A DNA stretch of 33,247 nucleotides from an uncultured Methanosarcinales archaeon. GTDB lineage: Archaea > Nanobdellota > Nanobdellia > Woesearchaeales > UBA119. The notes under the pieces were generated by a model, which ran no database searches, was not told the DNA's origin, and worked only from the letters and a program-made list of their open reading frames with translations. The first letter of the stretch is position 1. Each line of letters begins with the position of its first letter. Below, one piece after another: positions 3,112 through 32,014 of the stretch. A program made the translations under genes and the position numbers. The stretch is taken from assembly GCA_964615385.1 (NCBI GenBank), contig CAZTMQ010000003.1, positions 1-33,247 on the forward strand, given 5' to 3'.

Positions 3112-3302
3112 AACGGATTAGCTATAAATAATTGGTAAAAAATTTCTATTACGATAAAATATTAAGAACGATAAGATGTGAAGAAGAATCATAAGAGGGG
3201 CATAAAAAAAATAAATAAAAAACCTCAGCATAAATGCCAAGATATCTCGCTGATAGTAGAGGTTAATCGTTATGTGAATCCGTTTATTCTTATCTTGGCT
3301 TG

Positions 3303-3438
3303 AAAAATCAACAACCTCACCCAAAAGGGCGAGGTATGTTGGTAATACAAAAGCATGCGCTGCATTCAGCGAGGTTGTTGATTACAAAAAAGCGTACCAA
3401 GTCCTCGTGTTGAAACACGAGGTATGCTTTTCTATTAA
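3303..3438 (+). repeat. 136-bp GC-enriched element, copy A; candidate structured ncRNA or MITE-like repeat
   Basis: It aligns without gaps to the reverse complement of 10292-10427 at about 125/136 positions. It contains a 13-bp long-range helix (3306-3318 with 3371-3383) and two hairpins. It lies between two convergent gene ends. Confidence 0.6.
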
Positions 3439-3440
3439 CC

Positions 3441-3500
3441 AAAGTATGCGAATGACGGATTCACGAAATCAAAGTATGGGGATGACAGATTCACGAAATA
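3441..3500 (+). repeat. Tandem 2 x 30-bp direct repeat adjoining copy A
   Basis: The units are aaagtatgcgaatgacggattcacgaaatc (3441-3470) and aaagtatggggatgacagattcacgaaata (3471-3500). The acggattcac core (3455-3464) is the inverted complement of gtgaatccgt at 3274-3283. Confidence 0.7.
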
Positions 3501-3537
3501 AATTAAATAAAAATGGATAAAACAAACCAAAGATGCT

Positions 3538-4716
3538 TTATTTAAGTATGTGCACTTTAAGGGGCGGGAATCCATTGAAATACACTGAGCAATATGTTGT
3601 TGTATATGCGCCAGTTGTTAAGATGAAAACTCTATCCCCTTCTTTTATATCTTTAGGAAGCTTATAGTTGTATTTTTCGTACAATACATCTGCACTGTCA
3701 CAGGTGGGGCCTGCAAGAATTACATCTTTAACGCCAGAACCATTTATTATCCCTTTTTCAGAGAATATTGGATATTTTATGGATTCATCAATAGTTTCTA
3801 TTAACCCTCCAAATTTTCCTACATCTAAAAATACCCATTCATATTGGTTCATTACAGATTTTCTTGAAATCATAACTACCTCGCTTACTATTACGCCTGC
3901 ATCACCTACAAGAGACCTTCCAGGTTCAACGATTATTTCTGGAAACTCATCTGGAAAATCTTCTTTTAAAAAGCGCATAATCTCCTTTGCATAGGTCTCA
4001 AGAGAGTGTGTTGGCATAAGATAGTTTGAGGGAAAGCCTCCACCCATATTTATCATTTTTAGGTTTATTCCGGCAGATTTTGCGGAGTCAAAGAGATACT
4101 TGCATTGGGCGATTGCATTATCCCATTGTCCAATATCTCTTTGTTGGGATCCAACATGAAAGGATATTCCAAATGGTATTAAATTCAGCCTTTTGGCTTC
4201 TAAAACAAGATGATAAATCATATCAGGATGTGCACCAAATTTCCTTGAAAGAGGCCAATCCGCCCCACTGCCCTCACAAAGTATGCGAAAGAACAACTTT
4301 GACCCTGGTGCCTTATTTGCAATCTTATTGAGGTCGGTTATTGAATCTGTTGCAAAAAGTCTTATCCCTTTTTTGTATGCGTACTCAATGTCAGTTTCCT
4401 TTTTTATTGTGTTTCCATAGCTAATTTTTTCAGGTGGAACGCCTAACTCTAAAAGCTGGTCTAGTTCGTAGATTGTCGCAATATCAAAGTTTGAGCCCTT
4501 CGCTAAAAGCATTTTTAGTATTTCATTATTAGGATTTGCTTTGATCGCGTAATAGATCTTTGCAAAGGGAAGCAGTGTTTTTAGCTGCTCAAAGTTCTCT
4601 TCAACCCGTTTTATGTTTAGCACCAGAAAAGGGGTTTCTAAGCTCTTAGAAAACTCAACAATTCGTTTGAATTCATCTTCTGTAAGATAGTCATATACGT
4701 TTCGTTCCTCATTCAT
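3538..4716 (-). CDS. PLP-dependent Orn/Lys/Arg decarboxylase (alanine-racemase fold, ornithine decarboxylase-like)
   Basis: 392 aa with YAIKANP (PLP lysine), HVGSQ, GGGFP, EPGRSLVG and GPTCDSAD motifs in the canonical order. Confidence 0.85.
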   Translation of the reverse strand: MNEERNVYDYLTEDEFKRIVEFSKSLETPFLVLNIKRVEENFEQLKTLLPFAKIYYAIKANPNNEILKMLLAKGSNFDIATIYELDQLLELGVPPEKISYGNTIKKETDIEYAYKKGIRLFATDSITDLNKIANKAPGSKLFFRILCEGSGADWPLSRKFGAHPDMIYHLVLEAKRLNLIPFGISFHVGSQQRDIGQWDNAIAQCKYLFDSAKSAGINLKMINMGGGFPSNYLMPTHSLETYAKEIMRFLKEDFPDEFPEIIVEPGRSLVGDAGVIVSEVVMISRKSVMNQYEWVFLDVGKFGGLIETIDESIKYPIFSEKGIINGSGVKDVILAGPTCDSADVLYEKYNYKLPKDIKEGDRVFILTTGAYTTTYCSVYFNGFPPLKVHILK

Positions 4717-4893
4717 TTTAGGTCATATCCTCGTCAATAAAATTTTTAAAAAAACAAAAATCCAACCAAGTCAACTATTTCTTTTTATAAACTTTTAGAA
4801 TTTCGGCACACTGTTTTTGGCACTTAATTAAGTGATAATTGTTTGTAAAAAATGGCGACACAACTGTTTTAAAAAGTTTAGCTATGTTTAAGA

Positions 4894-5370
4894 TTATGAT
4901 ATATTAAGTATACTGATTAGGTTTTTATCTGATAGAAAGCCCTCACGTTTTAAATCATCTATGATATAATGAACATCTATGCTTTTAAACTCAAATCGTG
5001 ATTCAAGCTCATCAATGAACCTTTCTGCGTCTGTAACATTTTTAAACACCCCTTCGGCAAAGAAATCATAGCCGTTGTTGATTTTGTATAGGTTATTTAC
5101 ATTTTGATGTTTTTTTAGATAGGATAATAGCTCCTCTTTTGATTCTTTTATGGTCTTCATTGCAACAGTTACCCTTATTTCATAACCTAAAACTGAGAAA
5201 TCCAAAAGGATTGTGCTCTTTTTGATAACATTGTTCCTCTCAAAGTGCCTTAGCCGATCGTAGAGTGTTGAAACTGGAATAGCAGTGTCCCTGCTCATTG
5301 TAGTTAGTGGTTCACGGGAGTTCCTCCTAAGCTGGCACAAAAGCATTATATCCTTTTTTGGTAGTTTCAT
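4894..5370 (-). CDS. Lrp/AsnC-family transcriptional regulator
   Basis: 158 aa. N-terminal wHTH (LLCQLRRNSREPLTTMSRDTAIPVSTLYDRLRHFE) followed by a RAM/ACT-like beta-alpha-beta domain. It lies directly upstream of the decarboxylase on the same strand. Confidence 0.75.
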   Translation of the reverse strand: MKLPKKDIMLLCQLRRNSREPLTTMSRDTAIPVSTLYDRLRHFERNNVIKKSTILLDFSVLGYEIRVTVAMKTIKESKEELLSYLKKHQNVNNLYKINNGYDFFAEGVFKNVTDAERFIDELESRFEFKSIDVHYIIDDLKREGFLSDKNLISILNIS

Positions 5371-5491
5371 GGTGTTTCACAATATATTATTGACCACCGT
5401 AATTGTTATAAATTTATCCTATATACCTTCTATATAAACCATATATGTATATAGTTTATGAGGAAAATATATATCATATATAGTGATTGTG

Positions 5492-6394
5492 ATGAAGAGA
5501 AGTATAATGCTTTTGGGCGGAAAAACACTCGTCATCTCTCTCCCAGCAAAGTGGGCAAAGCACAATAATTTAAGAAAGGGCCAAGAAGTCGATATTAACG
5601 ATAAGGACGGGCTTTTATATATCTCGCCAGGTTCCCTTAAAGACCATTCTAGTGTTTTGCTTGATATTCGGGATAAAAGGAATGATTCTCTTATATTAAA
5701 GATGATTTTTTCGGCATATGTTAGGGGCTATGATGAGATAAACATAAGATTTAGATGTAAAGATCAACTAGATCTTATTCATTCTATGGCTTACACTCTA
5801 ATAGGATTTGCAACAATGAGCCAAGGCAATAATGTGGTAACACTTAAGGATTTATCAGAAGTAAACATTGAGGAGTTTGATAATGTTTACCCAAAGATTT
5901 ATCTGATGTTAAAAGAGGTCATTAAGGAAGGAGTAGACTGTTTGGAATGTGGGGACTTTGAAAGGCTTGCCAATTTTTCACAACGGGATTTTGCAATAAA
6001 CCAATATGTTAATTTCTGTTTAAGATCAATTTTGAGGTCTAATATAATGAGCCCCAACAAAAAGGTATTTTATTATAGCAAACTAACGAACCTAGAGCAA
6101 CTAGGTGACGCCTTTATTAATTTCTTTGAGTTTGTTTCAAAGGAGAGAATAACTTTAGGGAAATCTGAAAAACAGTGCTTCAAAAGGATTAGAGAAAGAA
6201 TTTATGAACTTGGCAAGGTTATCTATAAACCTAGTTTGGATAACATAACCAAGCTCTTTGAAGAAACAAAGGATATCATTTATTCTGCTTCAGAAATAGA
6301 GAATTCAGCGATAAGAATAAATATTATATGGCTTTGTACTTCCCTAAACAACCTGTTAGAATCGGCTCTTCCAGGCTGTTTTGAAGCGGAATAA
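5492..6394 (+). CDS. AbrB/SpoVT-domain plus PhoU-like regulator
   Basis: N-terminal swapped-hairpin motif LGGKTLVISLPAKWAKHNNLRKGQEV, then a helical PhoU-like region. The ATG at 5492 is preferred over the GTG at 5483 used in the ORF track. Confidence 0.6.
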   Translation: MKRSIMLLGGKTLVISLPAKWAKHNNLRKGQEVDINDKDGLLYISPGSLKDHSSVLLDIRDKRNDSLILKMIFSAYVRGYDEINIRFRCKDQLDLIHSMAYTLIGFATMSQGNNVVTLKDLSEVNIEEFDNVYPKIYLMLKEVIKEGVDCLECGDFERLANFSQRDFAINQYVNFCLRSILRSNIMSPNKKVFYYSKLTNLEQLGDAFINFFEFVSKERITLGKSEKQCFKRIRERIYELGKVIYKPSLDNITKLFEETKDIIYSASEIENSAIRINIIWLCTSLNNLLESALPGCFEAE

Positions 6395-6395
6395 G

Positions 6396-6899
6396 ATGAT
6401 TATTGTAATTACTGGTACACCGGGAACTGGAAAGACAAGGCTATCTGAACTTCTTTCTAAAAGGATTAAGGCGGATGTTGTATCGGTAAGTGAATTTGTT
6501 AAGAAAAGGCATCTGTATGAAAGTTATGATAGATCGCTAAAAACATATATCGTTGATGAAAAAAGGCTTTCAAAAGAGCTTGAACACTATGTCAGAAAGA
6601 GGTTTAAAGATAAAGATGTAATTATTGAAGGGCATCTTTCTCATTATCTTAAAAAGAGCCTTGTTGACTTGTGTATTGTGTTAAAATGCTCAATTACGGA
6701 GCTTAACAAAAGGCTGTCTAAAAGGAATTATTCGAGGGCAAAAATAAAAGAAAACCTTGAATCCGAAATATTTGGTATCTGCGAGGAGGAAGCAAGAGAG
6801 TTTCAAAAAATTGTGGTTTTAATCGATACAACCAAAAAAAGTGCAAGTGCTTCTGCAAATGAGGCATACGATATTATTAAGGGGTTAAAATGGATTTAA
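6396..6899 (+). CDS. Fap7/AK6-type adenylate kinase-like NTPase (small-subunit ribosome maturation factor)
   Basis: Walker A ITGTPGTGKT at the N-terminus. IEGHLSH plus the VLKCS..L..RL..RNY...KI.EN.ESEI pattern is typical of archaeal Fap7. The ATG at 6396 lies just after the upstream stop codon. Confidence 0.7.
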   Translation: MIIVITGTPGTGKTRLSELLSKRIKADVVSVSEFVKKRHLYESYDRSLKTYIVDEKRLSKELEHYVRKRFKDKDVIIEGHLSHYLKKSLVDLCIVLKCSITELNKRLSKRNYSRAKIKENLESEIFGICEEEAREFQKIVVLIDTTKKSASASANEAYDIIKGLKWI

Positions 6900-8002
6900 G
6901 AATGCTATCGTGGATTGAGATAAGGCTTTTAATTAAAGAGATAGGTTTAAACATTTCAGGAGCAAAGATTCAAAAGATTTCTGTTGTAAAAGAAGATGAC
7001 CACGTTGAAGCACTAATAAAGATCTATAAATCTAACCTATTTGAAAAAAATCTTTTCTTTTTGGTGCCATTTTGCTTTTTTCTTACCGCAAAAGCAAAGA
7101 ATCTGCCAACAATCCCACATAATTTTACAATGTTTTTAAGAAATAATTTATCTGGGGGAATAATCGAATCATTTGAGCAGGTTGGTTCAGAGAGGATTGT
7201 TCGTTTAAATATTAGGTATCATGATGAGATAAAAAGGCTTTATTTTGAGCTTTTTGCTCCAGGGAATATAATTCTTTGTGATGAAGCGAATACAATTCTT
7301 GGGGCATATACTAAAAAAGAGTTCAGAGATAGAACTATAAAGAACAAAGAAGGATATGTAATCCCACTAGAAAAGGACCTTTCGGTTATTTCTTTTGAAG
7401 ATTTTAAGGCGATTATCAATGAAAATATTGAGATTGTAAAAATCCTTGCCACTAAACTTAGGATTGGCGGGCAGTTAAGCGAGGAGATTATTAATAGGGT
7501 TGATATCGATAAAAATTGCATGGGAAAAGATGTTACTAATACTAAAACCAAAGCTATATATGAGGAGTTTAAGAGAATTATTGATGGCGGCTCTAAGGGC
7601 TATTTCTATCAAGAAAGGATGCTTCTTTCTCCCATAGAACTTTCAATTCTTGATGAAAAGCCAAAGATTTTTGATTCGTTTAATAAGGAGCTTTCAAATC
7701 TACTTAGCACGCCAAAAGTAAATAAAGACTATGTTGAGGAATTAAAGAAGATTAATTCTGTACTTGAAAAGCAAAGGGCTGCAGTCTTTGAGATTGAGAA
7801 TGGAATTGATAAAAATAATAATTTAGGGAATGCCATTTATGAGAAATACTCAGTTATTGAAAGATTGGTTTCTGAAGTTAAAGAGCTTTTAAAAAAGCAT
7901 AATTTTTTAGATGTTAAGGAAAAAATAAAGAACAGCAAATTCTCTGAAATAATCGATTTAAAGACAAAGAACAAGATGGCAATAAATCTTGATAAACTTT
8001 GA
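6890..8002 (+). CDS. NFACT-N family protein (Rqc2/FbpA-like), short form lacking the C-terminal NFACT-R region
   Basis: 370 aa. The N-terminal region (IGLNISGAKIQKI ... RLYFELFAPGNIILCDE) matches the NFACT-N pattern, and the C-terminal third is coiled-coil-like. It overlaps the upstream gene by 10 nt. Confidence 0.6.
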   Translation: MDLRMLSWIEIRLLIKEIGLNISGAKIQKISVVKEDDHVEALIKIYKSNLFEKNLFFLVPFCFFLTAKAKNLPTIPHNFTMFLRNNLSGGIIESFEQVGSERIVRLNIRYHDEIKRLYFELFAPGNIILCDEANTILGAYTKKEFRDRTIKNKEGYVIPLEKDLSVISFEDFKAIINENIEIVKILATKLRIGGQLSEEIINRVDIDKNCMGKDVTNTKTKAIYEEFKRIIDGGSKGYFYQERMLLSPIELSILDEKPKIFDSFNKELSNLLSTPKVNKDYVEELKKINSVLEKQRAAVFEIENGIDKNNNLGNAIYEKYSVIERLVSEVKELLKKHNFLDVKEKIKNSKFSEIIDLKTKNKMAINLDKL

Positions 8003-8196
8003 TTCGCAAAGATTTGTATATTAAGCCTTATTTATTTTAAGTCATATTTGAAGGGGATTTCTATATGTATGTATTTTATAATATTCAAAGTGAGAGCCCA
8101 CAAGTATAGATTATGAAGGATTAAAAGAAAGTGAAGAATAAAAATAAATTTATGAAAAACCTGAATTAATCCTCTTCTGCGTCAGATTCTGATTCT

Positions 8197-9663
8197 TTAT
8201 GGACTTTCTGTTTCTTTCAAAGGGCTTTTTTCTTTATCTATTGTCTCTTTAGGCTTTGTTTCCTCAGACTTTGGCTCTTCAGACTCTGTCTCTTCAGCCT
8301 TTTTTTTGCCCCTCATCTTTTTTCGGATTAAAAGTATTAGTCCTGTTGTTATTAGCGCAAGAGCAATTGTACCTATTGCTGCAAATATGTTATTTAGTAA
8401 TCCTGGTTTAAAGACAAGCAAGCTTCCTAATGCAAGCATCATCATTCCTGAAAGAAGCTTTAAAGCTTCACCTTGGGATTGAGAAAGCTTCTTTGCTCCA
8501 AAGGTGTAGGTAAATAAAAGCACAATGCTAAGCAATGGGATTATATATACCAGGTTATAAAATAAAAGGTACAAGTAATAGCTTAACGTACTAAGATCAT
8601 TAAGTACAAGCAATTTTGTAAATACCATTGGAAAGCCCGCGGTGCATAATAGCTCGTATAAATTAGCAGCGATTGCAAGAGTGATTGTACCAATCATCAT
8701 AGAAAACATTGATTCTGCCTTTAGAAGGGATCTCATCTTTGAGATAAGGCTCTTTTTGTGCTTATCTGAGACCGATAGTGAAACTCCTTTTTTGAATGCA
8801 AAAAAATCCTTTATGTTTATTGCAGCAATCGTTAATGCGACAAGGCCTGCTACTGTTGTTATTATGCTTATATTTTTTGTTACCATGAAAAAATTCAGCC
8901 ATGCAGCCATGAAAAGGAAGTATATTAACCCTGAGAAAAATACGAATGTAAGCCCAATAATTAACATCCTCTTTTTGCTTCTTGCATAAACAAGCATTGA
9001 AAGCAAAAATAGCAAAACAAAGAATGCGCAAGGGTTAAAACCGTCTAAAAATCCTAAAAGTATTGTTATTATAGGAAGTGAGACGCTGTTTGAACTTATC
9101 TCACCAAAGATTGGAATATTAACTGTTTCTTCTGTATTATTATTTGATGTAGAGTTCAACTCCGATTCAGGTTCAGAATTATTTTCTTTATTTCCTATAG
9201 CTTCTTCATTTTCGGTATCGCCTTCTTCGGTTCTTGGATCAACATTTATATAATCGCTCACATATGATGAGTTTGTTGCATCTCCATTTGTTGCATGGGA
9301 AAGAATTGCATCAATAATCTTTCCATTCATCTGTGGGCTATATCCCACAAAGTATTCATCGCCAATAAAGGCGGTTGGAACGCCTCTTACTTCAAATCCG
9401 TAGTCTTTGGCCATTTGTTCGAAAAGGGCTCTGTTTTCTTCATCATACCACACCTCATAATAGAGTGGGTTGATGTAGCTATATTCTTCTTTTAAAGAAT
9501 TAAGATACTCCTCTAACTGCGCACAATGTGGACACGTTTGTCCAATAAATACATGAATATCTACAGTATTATTTTTAGCTTCTGCAACCGGAATGTAAAA
9601 TAAACTTAAACAAAGCAAAAACAGCGTTATCAATAGTCCCTTGTTGATTTTTATTCCTTTCAT
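8197..9663 (-). CDS. Thioredoxin-fold (CPHC) domain fused to a DsbD/CcdA-type transmembrane thiol-disulfide transporter
   Basis: Signal/anchor MKGIKINKGLLITLFLLCLSLF, Trx-like domain with CPHC, acidic linker, and a polytopic domain with FNPCAFF and LLCTAGFP (the two conserved membrane Cys). It ends in a K/E-rich tail. The ATG at 9663 is preferred over the longer track ORF. Confidence 0.7.
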   Translation of the reverse strand: MKGIKINKGLLITLFLLCLSLFYIPVAEAKNNTVDIHVFIGQTCPHCAQLEEYLNSLKEEYSYINPLYYEVWYDEENRALFEQMAKDYGFEVRGVPTAFIGDEYFVGYSPQMNGKIIDAILSHATNGDATNSSYVSDYINVDPRTEEGDTENEEAIGNKENNSEPESELNSTSNNNTEETVNIPIFGEISSNSVSLPIITILLGFLDGFNPCAFFVLLFLLSMLVYARSKKRMLIIGLTFVFFSGLIYFLFMAAWLNFFMVTKNISIITTVAGLVALTIAAINIKDFFAFKKGVSLSVSDKHKKSLISKMRSLLKAESMFSMMIGTITLAIAANLYELLCTAGFPMVFTKLLVLNDLSTLSYYLYLLFYNLVYIIPLLSIVLLFTYTFGAKKLSQSQGEALKLLSGMMMLALGSLLVFKPGLLNNIFAAIGTIALALITTGLILLIRKKMRGKKKAEETESEEPKSEETKPKETIDKEKSPLKETESP

Positions 9664-9723
9664 TTTAGTATATCTTATTATGAAACAACATATAATCCTT
9701 TGTTTCATTATTTGAAACATTTA

Positions 9724-10227
9724 CTAAGAACAAAACAATTCCTTAAGCTCTTCATTAAGAGAAATTAGGTTTGTCATCCCATTTGGAGACTTTTTAATTA
9801 TATTCTTTTGTTCCAATTTCAAAAGTTCCCTTGATATCTTCACTTTATTCAGTCTTGTCTCTTTTGTTATCTCCGATTGGGTGGCCGAGCCGTTTCTTTT
9901 GATTAATGTCTCTATTATCCTTTTACAGTCTGTATCTAAAAATGTAAGTGTTGCGCTGGCATCTTTATTTATCCTTACAATTTCTTTTCTATGTCTTTCA
10001 GATATAAAGTAGTAAAGGGTGCTTCCTACAAAAAGACCAAACAAAGAAAGTAAGATAAGAATCAAAGTCACCTCATTTTTAATACGGCATTCAAGAGTGC
10101 ATAAAACCTTCTCATTTAGGTAGGTGAGGAGGAAGAATACCAAGGCCGCGAACCCAGAAGCAATTCCTATTATAAGCCATAACTTCAACAGTGGATTTCT
10201 CATAATTTTGTTTTGGTAATAAGTCAT
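9724..10227 (-). CDS. Membrane-anchored winged-helix (MarR-like) protein
   Basis: 167 aa with two predicted TM helices followed by a wHTH segment (LIKRNGSATQSEITKETRLNKVKISRELLKLEQKNII). It lies 3 nt upstream of the Trx-DsbD gene on the same strand. Confidence 0.5.
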   Translation of the reverse strand: MTYYQNKIMRNPLLKLWLIIGIASGFAALVFFLLTYLNEKVLCTLECRIKNEVTLILILLSLFGLFVGSTLYYFISERHRKEIVRINKDASATLTFLDTDCKRIIETLIKRNGSATQSEITKETRLNKVKISRELLKLEQKNIIKKSPNGMTNLISLNEELKELFCS

Positions 10228-10291
10228 TTATAAATATTTTTCTAATTGGCTTAAATAGCATAAGCACTTAATCCAGATCTTTGTTTTTTTA

Positions 10292-10427
10292 TTAATAGAA
10301 AGGCATACCACGTGTTTCAACTCAAGGACTCGGTACGCTTTTTTGTAATCAACAACCTCGCTGAATGCAGCGCATGCTTTTATATTACCAACATACCTCA
10401 CCCTCCAGGGTGAAGTTGTTGATTTTT
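10292..10427 (-). repeat. 136-bp GC-enriched element, copy B (inverted relative to copy A)
   Basis: The reverse complement matches 3303-3438 at about 125/136 positions with no indels. Weaker flanking similarity continues, for example 10518-10538 versus 3230-3250. It lies in a divergent intergenic region. Confidence 0.6.
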
Positions 10428-10684
10428 AATTTTGTGAAATACTTTCTTTTTTCATACTTTATTCTTAAGAAGGGTGTAATAAAAGACGTATTCACAGACA
10501 AATAAGCTGGGCCATTGGCGAGACACCTTGGCGTTTATACCACAGTTATTCATTTTTTTATCAATTATGTGTTCACTAATTAGGCGGGTACAATGAATTT
10601 TTAGAGTAGTTTACTAGAGTATTTTTACTTGGATTTAGCTGTTTTTAGAAATCTTTAAAAAACCTAGTGCCTAAAATATTTTGT

Positions 10685-11206: not shown

Positions 11207-11279
11207 AAAAAGTGCTTACAATCACATATAGTCAATTTCTATTAAAGCCTTGAAAGTCTTGAGAAGAATTTAAAGAAAG

Positions 11280-11397
11280 GCGAACGGCTTTTTGGTATTC
11301 CCGTTCATGAGAACAGTACTCGCCAAAACGCAAAGGCCAGCTTGACTGCCGAGTTCGAAAAGGGTTCGGGTATTACCTGACCGCTATGGCCGTTCTA
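11280..11397 (-). rRNA. rrf: 5S ribosomal RNA
   Basis: The minus-strand read is gaacGGCCAUAGCGGUCAGG..ACCCGAACCC..UCGAACUCGGCAGUCAAGCUGGCC...GAGUACUG...GGGAAUACCAAAAAGCCGUUC. Helix I pairs 11389-11395 with 11282-11288, helix II is GGUCAG/CUGGCC, and loop-E-like AGUA/GAA is present. Ends are uncertain by a few nt. Confidence 0.85.
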
Positions 11398-16429: not shown

Positions 16430-17395
16430 TTAGTTTGTACTCGCGGTTGTATTTTCTTCAACAGGCGATATTGTTTCTTCTGCTGGCTCTTCTTCCAATT
16501 CTATTTTTATTGAGCCATCAGCGATTCCTAAAGCCTTTCTTTGCTCAGGGTTTACTTTCATAAGTGTCAATTTTTTCAAAGCGTCTACTGTTGCATTAAC
16601 AAGTGTTAGCTTATTTCTGGTCTGACCTTCAACTCTGCACCATACATCTTTAATTCCTGCTTTTTCTAAAATCTTTGCAATCTCTTTTTCTACAATAAGG
16701 CCTTTTCCTTTTGGAGCAGGAAGAAGCTCTATTATTACCGAGGAACATTTTCCTACTACTTTATAAGGAATAGAGTGGGGCTCTGCGCAATTACATACCC
16801 ATGAACCACAGCCTCTTCGAATTTTAAATATATTCATTTTTGACTTTCGTATAGCCTTCTCCCTTGCAGGAACTGTTTCTTTTGCCTTCCCTATACCTAC
16901 TCCAACATGCCCATTTCCATCCCCACAAACAGCACAGGTACAGAAGTGAGGCTTGTTTCCTTCTTCTGTTTTCTTTTGGGTCTGCCTAAAAACTCTTTTT
17001 TGGCCACCCCCAAACTTTCCCTTTGCCTGACCAATCATTAAAAGGTCTGCGTTCATGTTAGGTAAAAGGGCGTCTACAATCTCCTCTTCGAGAATTGCCT
17101 GACCCTTGTCGAGTATTTCATCTATAGTTTTAATCTTGCCTTCTTTGACTAGCCTTCCTAATTCAGTTTTAGGTACCCAATTATCTATTGCCTTTGAAAT
17201 TGAAGGACCTTGCACCGTCCCTTCCTCAGAAGAGATAGTTTCTTCAGAATCGCTCCCTTTCTCGACTGCGATATCCTTTTTCTTTAATATCTTTTTATCT
17301 TCCCTTTTAAAGCCTTTTTTAGCATCTTTTCTTGGGAAAACTGGCTTTTTGCCCTTGCTTTTTTCAGATTTTCCTTTTTTTGTATTTTCTGACAT
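16430..17395 (-). CDS. rps5: 30S ribosomal protein uS5 with K-rich N-terminal and acidic C-terminal extensions
   Basis: Core GDGNGHVGVGIGKAKETVPAREKAI ... LLPAPKGKGL. The ATG at 17395 is preferred over the TTG at 17404. Confidence 0.9.
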   Translation of the reverse strand: MSENTKKGKSEKSKGKKPVFPRKDAKKGFKREDKKILKKKDIAVEKGSDSEETISSEEGTVQGPSISKAIDNWVPKTELGRLVKEGKIKTIDEILDKGQAILEEEIVDALLPNMNADLLMIGQAKGKFGGGQKRVFRQTQKKTEEGNKPHFCTCAVCGDGNGHVGVGIGKAKETVPAREKAIRKSKMNIFKIRRGCGSWVCNCAEPHSIPYKVVGKCSSVIIELLPAPKGKGLIVEKEIAKILEKAGIKDVWCRVEGQTRNKLTLVNATVDALKKLTLMKVNPEQRKALGIADGSIKIELEEEPAEETISPVEENTTASTN

Positions 17396-17496
17396 GAATA
17401 TCAAACCCTTTCGTTTTTAATTTGAAACGCATTAATTATGTGTGTTTTTCGCCCATATTTTATTTGCAATCAGGTAAATTATACCTTACACTTAAA

Positions 17497-24548: not shown

Positions 24549-25450
24549 TTCGAATCACCTGCAAAGTTTTCCTTATTCGCCATTTCGTTTGAATTATCAG
24601 AGGCACTATCAACATTATCGCTGGTGTTTTCTTCAACTACTTTGTCACTTGCAACTTCATTGGTGCTGTTACTTGAAGCCTCCTCTTTTTTCTTTTCAGC
24701 TTCTTTTTTTTGTGTAGCTTGTGGCTTTTTGACTTTAGACTTGCTCTTTTCTTTAGAGTTTGCTTCTTTGGATTGCACATCCTTTTTTTCAGCATCCTTA
24801 GTAGCCTTTTCTACAGGCTTTTCCATCACAGTCTCTTCCACTACAGATTCTTCTTTGATTATTTCTGAAACATCATCAGGAGATGTTAAGTCTGCAGGCA
24901 TTATGTTTACCTTAATCCCAACGACTCCTGATTTTAAGACTGCAAATTCCTTTGCTGCTTTTACTTGTGTTAATGCAAGATCTCCAGATTTCTTGAGATA
25001 TCCGTAAAATACCCTCCAGCTTTTCGCTCTAGAGCTTGGAATCTTTCCTGAAAGTATAATTTCAACGCCTTTGGCACCTGCCCTCATTACAGATTCTGCA
25101 CTTTTATGCATAATTGATTTGAATCTTTTTGAGCCATATCTCTCCAAGGAAAGGGCAATCCTTTGTGCAACAACCACTGCATCGAGGTCTTGATCAGTAA
25201 TCTCAGAAACCTCAAGTTGAGGATTTTCAAGATTGAACTTCTTTTTTAGCTCCTTTGTTAAGAGAGCGATATTGTTTCCTTTTCTACCGACAACCTTTCC
25301 AGGCTTGGTACAGTATATAATTATATTCTCACCTAAAGGAGTCTTTTTAACCTCAGTTCTGGCCACACTCCTTTCTTTTAGGAAATTGAGTATAAAATCG
25401 TGTATTTCGTGCTTCATTAAATTTGAAGTGATAAAGCTTCTCTCTATCAT
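24545..25450 (-). CDS. rps3: 30S ribosomal protein uS3 with roughly 100-aa C-terminal low-complexity tail
   Basis: KH-domain region (PGKVVGRKGNNIALLTKELKK) and RAGAKGVEIILSGK. 4-nt overlaps with both neighbouring genes. Confidence 0.9.
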   Translation of the reverse strand: MIERSFITSNLMKHEIHDFILNFLKERSVARTEVKKTPLGENIIIYCTKPGKVVGRKGNNIALLTKELKKKFNLENPQLEVSEITDQDLDAVVVAQRIALSLERYGSKRFKSIMHKSAESVMRAGAKGVEIILSGKIPSSRAKSWRVFYGYLKKSGDLALTQVKAAKEFAVLKSGVVGIKVNIMPADLTSPDDVSEIIKEESVVEETVMEKPVEKATKDAEKKDVQSKEANSKEKSKSKVKKPQATQKKEAEKKKEEASSNSTNEVASDKVVEENTSDNVDSASDNSNEMANKENFAGDSK

Positions 25451-26280
25451 TTTTTAGCCCCCTGTGAATCGTCTGTATTTTGCTCCTTTTTACCTGAAGA
25501 GCCTTTATCTTGAATTAAATTAGCTTTCTTGCCATCCTGGCTTGTTTCTATAGACTTTGCCTTTGGTTCTGTATTATCTTTTTGTTTTTCCGTAGGTTCT
25601 TGAACAATAGTATTATCTTCTGATTTGGCCGGCTCTTTAGGCACCTTTGCTTCTTTTGATGAGTTACTTTGCTTATCCAAGCCCTTTTTTTGATTTACAC
25701 CCTCTGCTTCTTTTTTAGGTGTTTGATCCTTTTGATTTTTCTGAACGCTCGCTTCTTTTTTAACAGGGTTAGCCTGTTCTTTGATCTTGGTTTTCGAAGC
25801 AGGTTTGGCCTTTGAAACTATATCTTTTAACTCCTTTTTGGAGCTCTTCTTAGAGATTAATACCACTTCAATGTGCGTCCTCTTTGCCACTCTGCCCCTA
25901 TGCCTTGCAGGTTTATAAGTTGTAGGCCCCTTATCGGCACTGATGTGAAGTATTTCAAGCGAAGCACTATCAAGCCCTTTAGCAACAGCATTTTTCTCTG
26001 CGTTTTTTAGTATTTTTTCTAGTTCAAAAGCAGTTTTTACAGGAAACCTTCCAGGTCCAATATTCTTTTTGTGTGCCACACTCGAATTATACCTTCTAAA
26101 TGGCACAGCGACTTTCATTGCTTTAACTTCTTCAAGTATTTTGTAGGCTAAAGAAAGCCTTTTTCCCTTCAAAAGCCTGCAAAACTCTACGGCTTTCTTA
26201 AAGGAGATTGGAAGTGATTCTCCCTTGGCTTTGCCCAACTGGCTTTCATCCTGTTTTTTTGATATTGACTTGTATTTCAT
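25447..26280 (-). CDS. rpl22: 50S ribosomal protein uL22 with roughly 130-aa C-terminal K/E/Q-rich tail
   Basis: ISFKKAVEFCRLLKGKRLSLA ... GRVAKRTHIEVVL core. Confidence 0.9.
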   Translation of the reverse strand: MKYKSISKKQDESQLGKAKGESLPISFKKAVEFCRLLKGKRLSLAYKILEEVKAMKVAVPFRRYNSSVAHKKNIGPGRFPVKTAFELEKILKNAEKNAVAKGLDSASLEILHISADKGPTTYKPARHRGRVAKRTHIEVVLISKKSSKKELKDIVSKAKPASKTKIKEQANPVKKEASVQKNQKDQTPKKEAEGVNQKKGLDKQSNSSKEAKVPKEPAKSEDNTIVQEPTEKQKDNTEPKAKSIETSQDGKKANLIQDKGSSGKKEQNTDDSQGAKK

Positions 26281-29932: not shown

Positions 29933-32014
29933 TTAACTTTTGTTGTCATCTTCAGAGGCGTTATCTTGCTCAACCATTGAGTTTTTTGCATATTCTTTTG
30001 CTGAATTGTTTGTTGAAGTCTCTTTACTTTTTCTTTTTTCCTTTGGCTTTCTTTCCCTTTTTCGCTCTACCTTAGTTCTCTTAAGCATTATCTGCGCATA
30101 ATTTAAGGGGTTTTTCACCAAAGAACAAGTCTCGTCAGGGTTACATATCCCAAAATCGGTATAGTAGCCTTTTGAAGCACAATTAGGAGGAGCAGTTTTG
30201 CCTTTCTTTGACAAGTGATATTTTAGATGCGAATCTATCATTTGAGGTGAAAGCGGGTCTTTGTTTCTAGAATTCCATTTGCGTACTGCATCTGTTACGT
30301 CCTTTGAGTTCCAACCAATGGATTTCAAGAAATTGACTAAAATAAAAAGAAATCTTTTCCTGCCATCACTTAGCCCTTTAAGCCCTAAACGAATGCATGG
30401 CGGGAAATATTTGTCGGCAAAAGAGTCAATGTCAAGATTGGTTCCTTCCAAAGAGATTACGAGTGATTTATATTCGCCTTGTGTTGTTGAATTGGTGGAA
30501 TTTGCCCCTTCTAAACTGTCTCGTCTTGAAGGTAGATCAATGTGAGATTGGTGGTATGAATACCTGCTTTGGTCTAGATCAGGGTTATAATCAAAAGCTT
30601 CAGTTATAAGGGTTTTTCCTTCTGAAGAGTCGGTTTTTGAATCATCTAAAAAGATAAGGTGATTTTCCCGTAGCATCGCTAGTTGTGTTAAAGGATTAGA
30701 TAAATGAGTTTGATTGAGATCAGGATATGTCCCATATTTTGATACTGAGTTTGATTGAGTGTGCTGATCAGACTTATTATCTATAGCAGAATTGTGCGCA
30801 TTTGAATTGTGCGTAGTGGAATTGCTTGTGGTGGAATTGTTTGTGGTGGAATTGTTTGTGGTGGAATTGTGCGGGGTGAAATTGTGCGGGGTGAAATTGG
30901 ACAAGCTGTTTGATTGGTTCTTGTTTTCATCGTCTGATTGATTGTCTGAAAGCGATTGATTGTCTGAAAGATTGTGACTTTGGTTAGGGTTTAGATTAAG
31001 TGGGTTTTGGTCTTTAGGTTTCAGAAGAAAATCTATTAGTTCTAAGACCTTTTTTGGTTCTGCAGATTCCCTTTTGAAATTAAGAACGTTATCAGAGTTT
31101 ATTGGAAGTGAAACGAGCCCAGATTTCTCATGCAAGGAGTAGGGGCATCTGTATAAGTGCCTTGAGGATATAAGGATTTCATCTATTAACAGATTAACCT
31201 TTTTCACAGTTTCTTTGCTTGAGCATTTTGGGCAGGCTCTTTCTTCTACTACCTCTACTCGCTTCATTATTCTTGAGCACACAGGACAGATTTTATAAGG
31301 CTCGTTTCCATCAGAGATTTCATTTCCACAGTCGGGGCACTGGAATGTAACCTTTTTTTGGTTTTTTCCTTCGATTTTTGTGCCACACTTTTTGCATACC
31401 TCATACACAAGCTTTTTATCTTCGTGCTCTGCAATGTATTTTTGGAAATCAGGATTTGCAATTACCTTTTGGGAGAATTCAAAGCCTGTTTCAAGTTTAT
31501 CAATATAGTGAACAAGATATGCATTGATTCTTTTTACCCCTTCGGGAAATAAAAGCTTTGTATCTTTACCATGAACACTGTCGGGGAACGCTTTAAATGG
31601 AACACCTATATGAAATCCCTTATTTCCTGAGAATTTGATGGTTATCGACTTAACTCCGTGCGTTTTTAAGGCGATTATTATCTCGTTTGCGATGAGCTTT
31701 GTTACTTCCCATACCGGGAAATCTATGTCAATTACTAAGTCCCAACCTACTCTTAAGTCGTCTAGCTCAGATTGTTTTTGCCCAGTAGAGATTGCTAAAG
31801 GATTTGACCACAGCTCTTCAGAGACGTGAAAAGAAGAAGCGCGCCCTTTTGCAAACTCTAAAACATCACCTGGATTTTCGATGATATCAGGCCTTTTCCC
31901 AAAATAACCTTCAAGGTATTTGACACCAACTTCTCTATTCTTGCAGGATAAAGAGAGCAGTTTTGAAATCGCTAAACTCTTATAGTATGTAAGTGTATCT
32001 GAGATTGTTAGCAT
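29933..32014 (-). CDS. Single-chain archaeo-eukaryotic DNA primase: PriS catalytic domain fused to a PriL C-terminal (4Fe-4S) like domain
   Basis: AEP motifs DLVIDID (I), SGNKGFHIGV (II) and RCPYSLHEKSG (III). Four CxxC pairs lie between motifs II and III. A low-complexity N/S/T/H/Q linker is followed by YFPPCIRLGL..GRKRFLFILVNFLKSIG...PPNC...GIC....ETC, which resembles PriL-CTD. Confidence 0.8.
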   Translation of the reverse strand: MLTISDTLTYYKSLAISKLLSLSCKNREVGVKYLEGYFGKRPDIIENPGDVLEFAKGRASSFHVSEELWSNPLAISTGQKQSELDDLRVGWDLVIDIDFPVWEVTKLIANEIIIALKTHGVKSITIKFSGNKGFHIGVPFKAFPDSVHGKDTKLLFPEGVKRINAYLVHYIDKLETGFEFSQKVIANPDFQKYIAEHEDKKLVYEVCKKCGTKIEGKNQKKVTFQCPDCGNEISDGNEPYKICPVCSRIMKRVEVVEERACPKCSSKETVKKVNLLIDEILISSRHLYRCPYSLHEKSGLVSLPINSDNVLNFKRESAEPKKVLELIDFLLKPKDQNPLNLNPNQSHNLSDNQSLSDNQSDDENKNQSNSLSNFTPHNFTPHNSTTNNSTTNNSTTSNSTTHNSNAHNSAIDNKSDQHTQSNSVSKYGTYPDLNQTHLSNPLTQLAMLRENHLIFLDDSKTDSSEGKTLITEAFDYNPDLDQSRYSYHQSHIDLPSRRDSLEGANSTNSTTQGEYKSLVISLEGTNLDIDSFADKYFPPCIRLGLKGLSDGRKRFLFILVNFLKSIGWNSKDVTDAVRKWNSRNKDPLSPQMIDSHLKYHLSKKGKTAPPNCASKGYYTDFGICNPDETCSLVKNPLNYAQIMLKRTKVERKRERKPKEKRKSKETSTNNSAKEYAKNSMVEQDNASEDDNKS
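30789..30893. repeat. Seven imperfect tandem 15-bp repeats inside the primase linker
   Basis: The unit is gaattgtNNgNNgtg on the plus strand. It encodes pentapeptide repeats (NFTPH, NSTTN, NSTTS, NSTTH, NSNAH) on the minus strand. Confidence 0.85.
30936..30970. repeat. Two tandem 18-bp repeat units inside the primase linker
   Basis: gattgattgtctgaaagc followed by gattgattgtctgaaag, encoding the LSDNQS repeats. Confidence 0.8.

What the first reader, a model, noticed from the sequence alone, without database searches (positions are those of the whole stretch)
3303..3438. Inverted pair of 136-bp GC-enriched intergenic elements: unannotated structured RNA or MITE-like repeat
Positions 3303-3438 (+) and the reverse complement of 10292-10427 align without gaps at about 125/136 positions by hand alignment. 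A central 68-nt block (3331-3398) carries a single change. The element has three stems: a perfect 13-bp long-range helix (aatcaacaacctc 3306-3318 with gaggttgttgatt 3371-3383), a gctg/cagc tetraloop hairpin (3359-3370), and an 8-bp hairpin (3403-3422). Two features give G-U pairs only if the RNA is read on + for copy A and - for copy B, hinting at a transcribed strand: the C-to-T change in copy B within the long helix, and the gcgtacc/ggtatgc pairing. Against a conserved fold, two substitutions in copy B break the 3403-3422 hairpin. In AT-rich archaeal genomes, GC-enriched intergenic islands are a classic ncRNA signature, and the clearest other such island in this window is the 5S gene. The element has no tRNA cloverleaf or T-loop, is not 5S, and has no C/D boxes. 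Copy A sits between two convergent 3' ends, so it is not simply a promoter.
Basis: partly seen in the sequence, partly recalled or inferred. Interest (0 to 1): 0.7.

Follow-up and report, generated by a model that had tools for sequence, protein, structure and literature searches.

The report
Modular intergenic repeat family in Woesearchaeota
The two look-alike 136-base stretches are real, but they are two members of a wider family of small, non-coding, hairpin-rich repeats scattered between genes in one genus of tiny archaea; this is a new example of a familiar kind of repeated DNA, and one unusually well-conserved piece of it may still prove to be a structured RNA.

Summary
The pair is not a stand-alone feature. 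Each copy is the "core" module (~134 nt) of a three-module repeat. The other modules are U (~95 nt) and b (~32-37 nt).

I found at least 6 independent core loci and at least 10 U loci in about 100 kb from the window's species and a sister Woesearchaeota lineage. None turned up in 128 kb of more distant relatives, in Rfam, or in the phage, plasmid and viral collections.

All four orthologous sites that could be compared differ in presence or absence between the two lineages. One locus varies in tandem copy number between strains.

The 3' half of U and b form a ~27-bp stem that encloses either a short loop or the core. Runs of five or more T, each after a hairpin, are frequent on the reverse strand (25 versus 3).

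The core is more conserved than its carrier (96% versus 81%). Covariation within the core is not significant. The U-b hairpins show modest covariation, on the opposite strand.

Best reading: a new REP/BOX/MITE-like modular intergenic repeat. It is probably transcribed and terminator-bearing. How it moves is unknown. A functional core RNA is not excluded.

The parts
3213..3307 (+). Module U of copy A (~95 nt). The 5' half holds a hairpin around CATAAATG. The 3' half is the left arm of the long stem.
   Evidence: nhmmer with a U model built from 11 units gives E = 2.8e-23.
3223..3243 (-). U5' hairpin of copy A. On the - strand it reads ATCTTGGCATTTATGCTGAGGT followed by TTTTTTATTT, which is terminator-like.
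   Evidence: Flagged by the terminator scan. Folding energy is -8.1 kcal/mol on the - strand against -2.1 on the + strand, because three pairs are G-U only on the - strand.
3274..3298 (+). Left arm (L) of the long stem. It pairs with box b1.
   Evidence: RNAalifold and single-sequence folds pair it with 3439-3470. GUGAAUCCG/CGGAUUCAC is a perfect 9 bp in copy A.
3305..3438 (+). It contains P1 (3306-3318/3371-3383), inner hairpins (3320-3329, 3334-3358, 3359-3370), an ACAAAAAA linker, and hairpin H4 (3392-3427, upper stem 3403-3422) followed by CTTTTCT.
   Evidence: nhmmer E = 2.7e-46. Fold. Pair counts.
3439..3499 (+). Two tandem b boxes (3439-3470 and 3470-3499; consensus CCAAAGTATGCGAATGA-N-GATTTCATGAAATC). 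They form the right arm of the long stem.
   Evidence: Direct repeat D7. The pattern has 2 matches against 0.02 expected. nhmmer hits.
10292..10425 (-). Core module, copy B.
   Evidence: nhmmer E = 6.8e-44. 125/136 identical to copy A.
10429..10460 (-). Degenerate b box between U and the core in copy B (AAAGTATGAAAAAAGAAAGTATTTCACAAAAT). This is the 39-nt 'insert' relative to copy A.
   Evidence: Alignments. It pairs with the B left arm, with a compensated C-G to A-U change.
10462..10555 (-). Module U of copy B.
   Evidence: nhmmer E = 8.1e-18.

Best explanation
The two copies are members of a lineage-restricted, non-coding, modular intergenic repeat family. It is found in the window's Woesearchaeota species and in a sister lineage. 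A unit consists of U, an optional core, and b. The 3' half of U and b are imperfect inverted repeats forming a ~27-bp stem. That stem closes either a short loop (U-b units) or the 134-nt core (units A, C and E). The core also occurs directly after b or directly before U.

Shown: units are gained or lost at orthologous sites between the two lineages, and they recombine with each other. The recombination gives tandem copy-number differences and a recombinant copy between strains.

Inferred: the family behaves like bacterial REP/BIME, BOX or MITE-type elements. These are small, selfish or semi-domesticated DNA that spreads through intergenic space by an unidentified mechanism, either transposition by an unlinked enzyme or recombination.

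Also inferred: the units are transcribed. The units therefore most likely act as terminator or insulator and 3'-end structures between neighbouring genes. The core is held much more constant than its carrier and may have an RNA- or protein-binding role of its own. The inverted arrangement of A and B is incidental.
For: 1) More copies exist. A 27-mer from the core hits another Woesearchaeota MAG (DAOSEK010000001.1) and two metagenome contigs, and none of the flanking genes there are shared with the window. blastn and nhmmer then find 13 distinct core sequences at 6 or more loci, and U and b at 10 or more loci.

2) Presence or absence differs at orthologous sites. In the sister lineage the ODC-Memo spacer is 126 nt and lacks the ~300-nt unit A. 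Unit E (next to the NTP-transferase gene) and unit Uy (between Memo and the next gene) are present there and absent from the window. Unit B lies beside two genes that the sister lineage lacks.

3) Recombination is visible. L007 and L008 carry U-b-core-U-core where L006 and L009 carry a single copy. That single copy has the 5' part of one tandem copy and the 3' part of the other.

4) The order of modules is mosaic.

5) The units are non-coding. Reading frames are broken in several copies, and six-frame peptides find nothing in the protein collection.

6) The L::b stem and the U5' hairpin are supported. Whole U-b units are more stable on the reverse strand in 9 of 11 cases. Covariation exceeds the shuffles: 87.6% paired against 84.5% (1/500), score 12/500, and pair 7-84 is GC in 4 units and AU in 4.

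Hairpin-plus-T sites are flagged in the window. U-rich tracts are the archaeal terminator signal (PMC7515710).

8) Orientation is biased. On the reverse strand, the next gene is co-directional in 9 of 10 intergenic regions. In 5 of 6 core-bearing regions a co-directional gene ends just upstream (coordinates).

9) The family is restricted. There are no hits in 128 kb from relatives with 65% SecY identity and other loci, none in Rfam, and none in viral, phage or plasmid collections.
Against: No transposase or other mobilising gene was seen.

The core has no terminal inverted repeats, and no convincing target-site duplication was found. Only short, ambiguous ATCAA and TGAAA repeats occur at some junctions.

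Only about 100 kb from two lineages could be sampled, so genome-wide copy number is an extrapolation.

Within composite units that share the same junctions, the core is far more conserved than U. For A versus C the figures are 96.2% against about 81% (p = 0.0003). Orthologous coding DNA is 77-83% identical. Purely selfish, neutrally decaying copies would not show this.

Strand evidence conflicts. U and b favour the opposite strand.

Four units have no co-directional gene upstream on the reverse strand, so a pure terminator role does not explain them.

There is no expression data.
Confidence: 0.6

Rival explanations
1. The core, or the whole U-core-b unit of about 265 nt, is a true trans-acting structured small RNA gene family. 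On this view the copies are paralogous genes kept by purifying selection, not mobile DNA. U supplies the promoter or leader, and H4 followed by UUUU supplies the 3' end.
For: The core is significantly more conserved than its flanks and than orthologous coding DNA. GC is enriched over the intergenic background.
Against: Overall covariation in the core is no better than in shuffles. H1a, H3 and H4 carry uncompensated disruptive changes in copies B, D, E, F and G. Loci are not conserved between sister lineages. Strains differ in tandem copy number. No canonical BRE/TATA sits at a fixed distance upstream. There is no Rfam relative. The adjoining modules pair better on the other strand.
Confidence: 0.2
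2. It is a classical cut-and-paste MITE, an internally deleted DNA transposon mobilised in trans. The L and b arms would be its ~27-bp terminal inverted repeats, and the core would be its internal cargo.
For: Imperfect inverted repeats of about 27 nt bracket the core or a short loop. The element is small, non-coding, multi-copy and insertion-polymorphic.
Against: About 60 nt of conserved U sequence lies outside the left arm. The core also occurs outside the arms, in units B, D, F and G. No target-site duplications were found at unit ends. The arms show compensatory and G-U changes in individual copies, which is not expected of dead MITE copies. No related transposase was seen.
Confidence: 0.08
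3. It is a derivative of an IS200/IS605-type element (a PATE, or a stand-alone omega-RNA-like scaffold), or a guide RNA of another RNA-guided mobile-element enzyme encoded elsewhere in the genome.
For: It has subterminal hairpins and no terminal inverted repeats or target-site duplications at the core ends. It is a ~134-nt highly structured, sequence-conserved scaffold with a sharp 3' boundary followed by variable sequence. IS200/IS605 omega-RNAs are known in archaea (title of PMC12558985; otherwise from my own knowledge).
Against: No tnpB, tnpA, iscB or recombinase gene adjoins any of the 6 or more loci. No conserved 4-5-nt target motif is evident beyond an A-rich left flank. There is no Rfam match.
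Confidence: 0.05
4. The inverted pair marks the boundaries of an invertible or mobile 6.8-kb segment (3444-10286), as recombination sites or composite-transposon ends.
For: There are two inverted copies 6.8 kb apart. A second inverted pair lies about 5 kb apart in the other genome.
Against: The genes between A and B are ordinary housekeeping genes. They are collinear and in the same orientation in the sister lineage, which lacks both A and B, and also in a strain of the window's species. The second pair points outward while A and B point inward. Further copies occur singly or in tandem.
Confidence: 0.03

Closest known systems
BOX elements of Streptococcus pneumoniae (boxA-boxB-boxC modular intergenic repeats); comparison from my own knowledge
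   Same: Both are short non-coding modules that occur in varying combinations and numbers in intergenic regions. Both form stable hairpins, lack a transposase of their own, and are restricted to a narrow lineage.
   Different: There is no sequence similarity. The host here is an archaeon. One module (the core) is far more conserved than the others. T-tract terminator-like signals lie on one strand only.
REP / BIME / REPIN elements of enterobacteria and pseudomonads; comparison from my own knowledge
   Same: Both are imperfect palindromes forming long hairpins, made of two inverted arms like a REPIN. Both occur in mosaic arrangements, sit between genes (often at 3' ends), are linked to termination or mRNA 3'-end stability, and persist across related species.
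   Different: The units here are larger, 125-290 nt. The stem can enclose a 134-nt structured insert. No RAYT-type transposase is known here. Copy number is unknown.
MITEs, for example the Sulfolobus SM elements and the Correia/NEMIS elements of Neisseria; comparison from my own knowledge
   Same: Both are small, non-autonomous, multi-copy, insertion-polymorphic and hairpin-forming.
   Different: The core has no terminal inverted repeats, no target-site duplication was found, and no parent transposon is known.
GC-rich-island small RNAs of AT-rich archaea (the hgc and ssc RNAs of Klein, Misulovin and Eddy 2002); comparison from my own knowledge
   Same: Both are GC-enriched islands in AT-rich intergenic DNA with stable predicted structure.
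   Different: No match to any Rfam family at E <= 10 makes biological sense. The element is multi-copy and positionally unstable. Its expression is untested.
Intrinsic-terminator-like 3' elements, and archaeal U-tract terminators (PMC7515710)
   Same: On the reverse strand there are three hairpins, each followed by T5-T8. In 5 of 6 core-bearing loci they lie just after a co-directional gene.
   Different: Archaeal termination does not need hairpins. Four units have no upstream co-directional gene. The repeat is far longer than a terminator needs to be.

Membership tests
Any Rfam 15 family (including 5S, tRNA, SRP RNA, RNase P RNA, C/D and H/ACA sRNAs, ribozymes, riboswitches) | A covariance-model match at or near the family's gathering score. 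| tested here: not met
   At gathering thresholds only the 5S gene at 11279-11397 matches. At E <= 10 around both copies there are only far sub-threshold chance hits, for example rliH at 20.6 bits against a threshold of 100. The related loci yield only a tRNA-Arg. ARAGORN finds no tRNA in the window.
TIR-type MITE | Terminal inverted repeats at the ends of the element. | tested here: inconclusive
   The core ends (TCAACAACC... and ...CTTTTCTATYAA) are not inverted repeats. The L and b arms are ~27-nt imperfect inverted repeats, but conserved U sequence lies outside them, and the core also occurs outside them.
TIR-type MITE | Target-site duplications flanking independent insertions. | tested here: not met
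   Flanks of units A, C, E, Ux and Uy show no consistent duplication. Only A-rich similarity and short ambiguous ATCAA/TGAAA repeats appear at some module junctions. The one empty/filled site pair is too diverged to place the breakpoints.
TIR-type MITE, or dispersed repeats in general | Many non-coding copies at unrelated loci, differing in presence or absence between relatives. | tested here: met
   There are 6 or more core loci and 10 or more U loci in different gene contexts. Four of four comparable orthologous sites differ between the two lineages.
TIR-type MITE | A related autonomous transposon with the same ends. | not testable with these tools
No transposase is present in the roughly 100 kb held.
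REP/BIME/REPIN-like or BOX-like mosaic repeats | Hairpin-forming units combined in variable order and number in intergenic DNA. | tested here: met
   Observed module orders are U-core-b-b, U-b-core, U-b, b-U-b, core-U and U-b-core-U-core.
REP/REPIN | An associated RAYT (IS200-like tyrosine transposase), itself flanked by the repeats. | not testable with these tools
   This needs complete genomes of the lineage.
Archaeal H/ACA guide sRNA | A hairpin with a pseudouridylation pocket and a K-turn or K-loop, with ACA about 14-15 nt 3' of the pocket. | tested here: not met
   ACA does follow P1 directly (3384-3386). However, P1 is 13 contiguous base pairs closing a three-hairpin junction, leaving no two-strand pocket. 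The GA in the H4 internal loop is not conserved: copy A has CCAAGU.
C/D box sRNA | RUGAUGA and CUGA boxes with 12-nt guide spacing. | tested here: not met
   No conserved box pair is present in U, the core or b. Only two b variants read AAUGAUGC.
IS200/IS605 PATE or TnpB omega-RNA | It lies at or derives from the right end of a tnpB-bearing element, and a conserved target motif sits 5' of the left end. | tested here: not met
   No OrfB/TnpB-type domain occurs in the neighbouring genes. The left flanks share only an A run. Genome-wide absence could not be tested.
Riboswitch or cis-regulatory leader | A conserved position upstream of a coherent set of genes. | tested here: not met
   Neighbouring genes are unrelated (Memo, ODC, a tRNA, NTP-transferase, a helicase, hypothetical genes). 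Distances to the next start codon range from about 10 to about 400 nt.
Archaeal bulge-helix-bulge intron | Two 3-nt bulges separated by a 4-bp helix at the insert boundaries. | tested here: not met
   At the core/loop junction the fold has a 1-nt bulge, and H4 separates P1 from the closing stem.
Protein-coding gene or leader peptide | An open frame conserved across copies, with coding-type substitutions. | tested here: not met
   The apparent MPRYLA(D/N)S peptide in U is broken by an indel or lacks an ATG in units E, F, Ux, Uy and Uz. No frame is open with a start codon across cores. There are no protein-database hits.

The most novel reading that the evidence does not exclude
The 134-nt core is a functional structured RNA of a new class. 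It could be, for example, a scaffold or guide RNA for an unlinked enzyme, or a stable regulatory RNA. On this reading it is carried inside, and spread by, an older hairpin repeat (U-b). Purifying selection would then explain why it stays about 96% identical between species whose orthologous genes are about 80% identical, and why every change in its two main helices keeps pairing on one strand.
Probability: 0.2. Interest if true: 0.7.

Novelty: new member of a known kind. Interest (0 to 1): 0.4.

Why it matters
DPANN archaea such as Woesearchaeota have small, streamlined genomes, and their non-coding DNA is almost unstudied. My two literature searches found no description of such repeats in them.

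This family fills most of the larger intergenic spacers sampled. It differs between sister species at every comparable site, and it recombines between strains. That makes it a marker and a likely driver of micro-rearrangement. It is also a cause of assembly breaks: two short-read contigs end inside or at the edge of a unit.

If the reverse-strand hairpin-plus-U-tract modules do terminate transcription, the family would be an archaeal counterpart of bacterial REP- or BOX-type terminator and insulator repeats.

If the strongly conserved core is an RNA in its own right, it would be a new structured RNA class confined to an uncultured lineage.

Tried and rejected
- **Known RNA families.** Rfam at gathering and at E <= 10, and ARAGORN, found nothing relevant.
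- **H/ACA sRNA.** This was prompted by the ACA right after P1. It is rejected on architecture.
- **C/D box, BHB intron, hammerhead-like motifs.** Checked by eye and rejected.
- **Small ORF in U (MPRYLADSRG).** It looked conserved, with synonymous-type changes in A, C and the U after D. Five other U copies break the frame.
- **Coding potential of the core.** There is no consistent frame. A concatenated six-frame peptide query against 5.8 billion proteins gave no hit, so no ORFs called over other copies could be harvested that way.
- **Invertible segment or composite transposon between A and B.** Rejected by collinearity with relatives.
- **Replication origin (ORB-like boxes).** No Orc1/Cdc6 gene is in the window, and the repeats are dispersed. 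Dropped.
- **U as a promoter for the divergent neighbouring gene.** Distances are not fixed. Dropped.
- **Viral or plasmid origin.** Three exact-pattern scans of viral contigs and distant blastn against phages and plasmids were all negative.
- **Walking the window's genome.** The window appears to be a whole 33,247-bp contig. Exact-protein look-ups for its end genes found nothing.
- **ODC-based outgroups.** These turned out to sit in bacterial-looking contexts, and one had no DNA available.
- **Target-site duplications.** Looked for at unit and core junctions. Only short ambiguous A-rich repeats were found.

Full report
**1. The observation**

The repeat finder reports one outstanding inverted pair in the window. 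It spans 3303-3443 and 10287-10427, is 141 nt long and 91% complementary, and the copies lie 6843 nt apart. Every other pair is 33 nt or shorter.

There is a single change inside 3331-3398.

Both copies fold much better than shuffled sequence, with z = -5.6 for A and -4.2 for B. The reverse strand of A folds just as well, z = -6.2. The core has 41.8% GC. Other intergenic regions have 22-27%, and the 5S gene has 52%.

The neighbouring genes are ordinary archaeal housekeeping genes: Memo-like, ornithine-decarboxylase-like, Lrp/AsnC, an AAA_18 kinase, NFACT, the ribosomal protein operon and SecY. Copy A lies between convergent 3' ends. Copy B lies upstream of a DUF7343/MarR-like gene, which has its own TATA-like box after the element.

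**2.

An alignment of the flanks shows about 95 nt of further homology upstream of both copies. I call this module U. Copy B has a 39-nt insert between U and the core. Two tandem 30-nt boxes, module b, follow copy A.

**3. Known RNA families**

Rfam 15 gives only the 5S gene at gathering thresholds. At E <= 10 around either copy it gives nothing meaningful. ARAGORN finds no tRNA in the window.

**4. Copies elsewhere**

An exact 27-mer from the invariant block found one Woesearchaeota MAG (DAOSEK010000001.1) and metagenome contigs of the same organism. These loci share nothing with the window except the element, at either DNA or translated level. They carry two cores, C and D. By eye, the neighbours there are an EF-2-like gene end, a tRNA-Arg, a helicase-like gene and others.

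A search with the ODC protein found a 99% identical protein in a strain contig (L010) and an 87% identical protein in a Woesearchaeota MAG. The loci of the second protein, L006-L009, are syntenic with the window from ribosomal protein L15 and SecY through to Memo and beyond.

I treat L001-L004 and L006-L009 as one sister lineage, called 'genome 2' here. That they belong to one organism is assumed, not shown. SecY is 96% identical at protein level. Orthologous coding DNA is 77-83% identical.

**5. Presence or absence, and copy-number variation**

- In genome 2 the ODC-Memo spacer is 126 nt and lacks the ~300-nt unit A. Strain L010 has unit A with two SNPs.
- The same syntenic locus in genome 2 carries units that the window lacks. 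These are E (U-core-b, next to the NTP-transferase gene and an extra 214-aa gene), Uy (U-b, between Memo and the next gene), F/G and Ux.
- Unit B sits next to two genes that genome 2 lacks at that position: a 507-aa thioredoxin-like membrane protein and the DUF7343 regulator.
- Gene order is otherwise collinear, so the A/B pair has not inverted the segment between them.
- At the F/G locus, assemblies L007 and L008 have U-b-core-U-core. L006 and L009 have a single core whose 5' part and flank match one tandem copy and whose 3' part and flank match the other. This is the signature of unequal homologous recombination.

**6. Architecture**

Printing all units in one orientation, aligning modules and running an nhmmer census gives three modules:

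- U, about 95 nt: AAATGAAAAACCTCGGCATAAATGCCGAGG...CTTTGGCTTGAAAAA.
- Core, about 134 nt: TCAACAACC...CTTTTCTATYAA.
- b, 32-37 nt: CCAAAGTATGCGAA(A)TGA-N-GATTTCATGAAATC.

The observed module orders are U-core-b(-b) in A, C and E; U-b-core in B and F; U-b in five units; b-U-b; core-U in D; and the tandem array described above.

U is not coding. The apparent MPRYLA(D/N)S frame is broken in five copies. No frame is conserved across the cores.

Folding full units shows that the 3' half of U (arm L) and b are imperfect inverted repeats. They form a stem of about 27 bp that closes either a short loop or the whole core. Full unit C folds with z = -7.4.

**7. Structure and strand**

*Core.* Thirteen distinct sequences were aligned (alignment A4).

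- P1 is paired in 100% of cells. It carries four one-sided G-U changes and one compensated C-G to U-A change.
- H2 is paired in 98.9% of cells.
- H1a, H3 and H4 carry uncompensated disruptions.
- No covariation measure beats the shuffles: 72/500 for percent paired, 102/500 for the score.
- A local-hairpin alternative does no better.

*U-b.* The picture is reversed.

- The U5' hairpin and the L::b stem are more stable on the opposite (R) strand in most units. This holds for 9 of 11 whole U-b units, often by about 10 kcal/mol.
- On the R strand the consensus structure has 87.6% of cells paired against 84.5 +/- 1.1 in shuffles (1/500). There are 12 cells with double changes (16/500). The covariation score reaches the observed value in 12/500 shuffles.
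- One pair is GC in four units and AU in four.
- This is suggestive only, because related sequences can beat such shuffles without any structure.

**8. Terminator-like signals and orientation**

In a U-core-b unit there are three such runs, and each follows a hairpin.

The terminator scan flags these on the - strand of copy A at 3243->3222 and 3335->3314. It also flags the H4 hairpin plus CTTTTC on the + strand. Archaeal transcription ends at U-rich tracts, which are enriched in intergenic regions (PMC7515710).

Reading gene tables against unit coordinates gives the following, taken on the R strand:

- The next gene is co-directional in 9 of 10 intergenic regions. My own calculation gives a one-sided binomial probability of about 0.01.
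- In 5 of 6 core-bearing regions, a co-directional gene ends just upstream.

These facts fit a transcription-related, strand-specific role, such as a terminator, an insulator or a 3'-end structure. Four units have no upstream co-directional gene, and there is no expression data.

**9. Conservation**

The comparison uses composite units that share the same junctions, and so share one origin. In these, the core is significantly more conserved than U. For A versus C the figures are 126/131 (96.2%) against about 81% (p = 0.0003). The trend holds in five of six pairs.

A is closer to C, which is in the other lineage, than to B in its own genome. Neutral decay of selfish copies does not predict this. 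It points to constraint on the core sequence, or to recent spread of the core with transfer between lineages. I cannot tell these apart.

**10. Range**

There were no matches to any module in 128 kb from relatives with 65% SecY identity and other loci, even with nhmmer --max at E <= 10, where only noise appeared. There were none in viral contigs, phages or plasmids. The family looks confined to this genus-level lineage, within the limits of the sample.

**11. Verdict**

It is one module of a mosaic, hairpin-forming intergenic repeat family. The closest analogues in behaviour are bacterial BOX and REP/BIME/REPIN elements; that comparison rests on my own knowledge.

The mechanism of spread is unknown. 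A terminator or insulator role on the reverse strand is an inference. A separate RNA function for the strongly conserved core remains a live minority possibility.

Noticed in passing
window 8197-10227 versus L006 6147-6206; L006 4615-5259: Between NFACT and the 179-aa ORF, the window carries two genes that the sister lineage lacks at that position: a 507-aa thioredoxin/glutaredoxin-like membrane protein and a DUF7343/MarR-like regulator. The sister lineage instead has an extra 214-aa gene next to unit E. So in two cases repeat units sit at the edges of gene-content differences.
   Followed up: partly
window 11279-11397 (-): A stand-alone 5S rRNA gene (61.6 bits) is not linked to 16S or 23S. 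A TTTTTAAAA box lies about 29 nt upstream of its 5' end.
   Followed up: partly
L003 about 3276-3340 (- strand): One U module contains a fourfold tandem repeat of a 13-nt piece of U itself (GTTGAGGTTAAAT). This is micro-satellite-like expansion inside the repeat.
   Followed up: no
L005 (Logan contig, 1678 nt) end = window 3444; L011 end: The short-read contig carrying the ODC gene stops at window 3444, immediately after core A, at the start of box b1. Another contig stops inside unit E. The repeat family breaks assemblies.
   Followed up: partly
window 29933-32014 (-): A 693-aa ORF combines the small-subunit (PF01896) and large-subunit (PF04104) primase domains in one protein. This is a fused PriS-PriL.
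   Followed up: no
window 3538-4716 (-); loci L019, L020 and the places: Outside this genus, the nearest relatives of the ODC-like gene (66-68% identity) sit in bacterial-looking neighbourhoods (type IV pilin-like N_methyl proteins, LiaF/PspC, PdaC), and several are labelled CPR bacteria. This suggests inter-domain transfer of the gene.
   Followed up: no
window 3233-3265 (+): A short frame, ATG CCA AGA TAT CTC GCT GAT AGT AGA GGT TAA (MPRYLADSRG), recurs with synonymous-looking changes in three other U copies. It is broken in five more, so it is judged a coincidence of a conserved DNA or RNA motif.
   Followed up: yes
module b, e.g. L001 1419-1432, L006 15107-15120: The consensus 3' end of b is a perfect 14-bp palindrome, GATTTCATGAAATC. 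It could be a binding site for a dimeric protein, or the junction of two unit ends. It is imperfect in the window's copies (GATTCACGAAATC).
   Followed up: no
window 16430-17404, 25447-26280 (-): Ribosomal proteins S5 (324 aa) and L22 (277 aa) are much longer than their Pfam domains, so they carry lineage-specific extensions.
   Followed up: no
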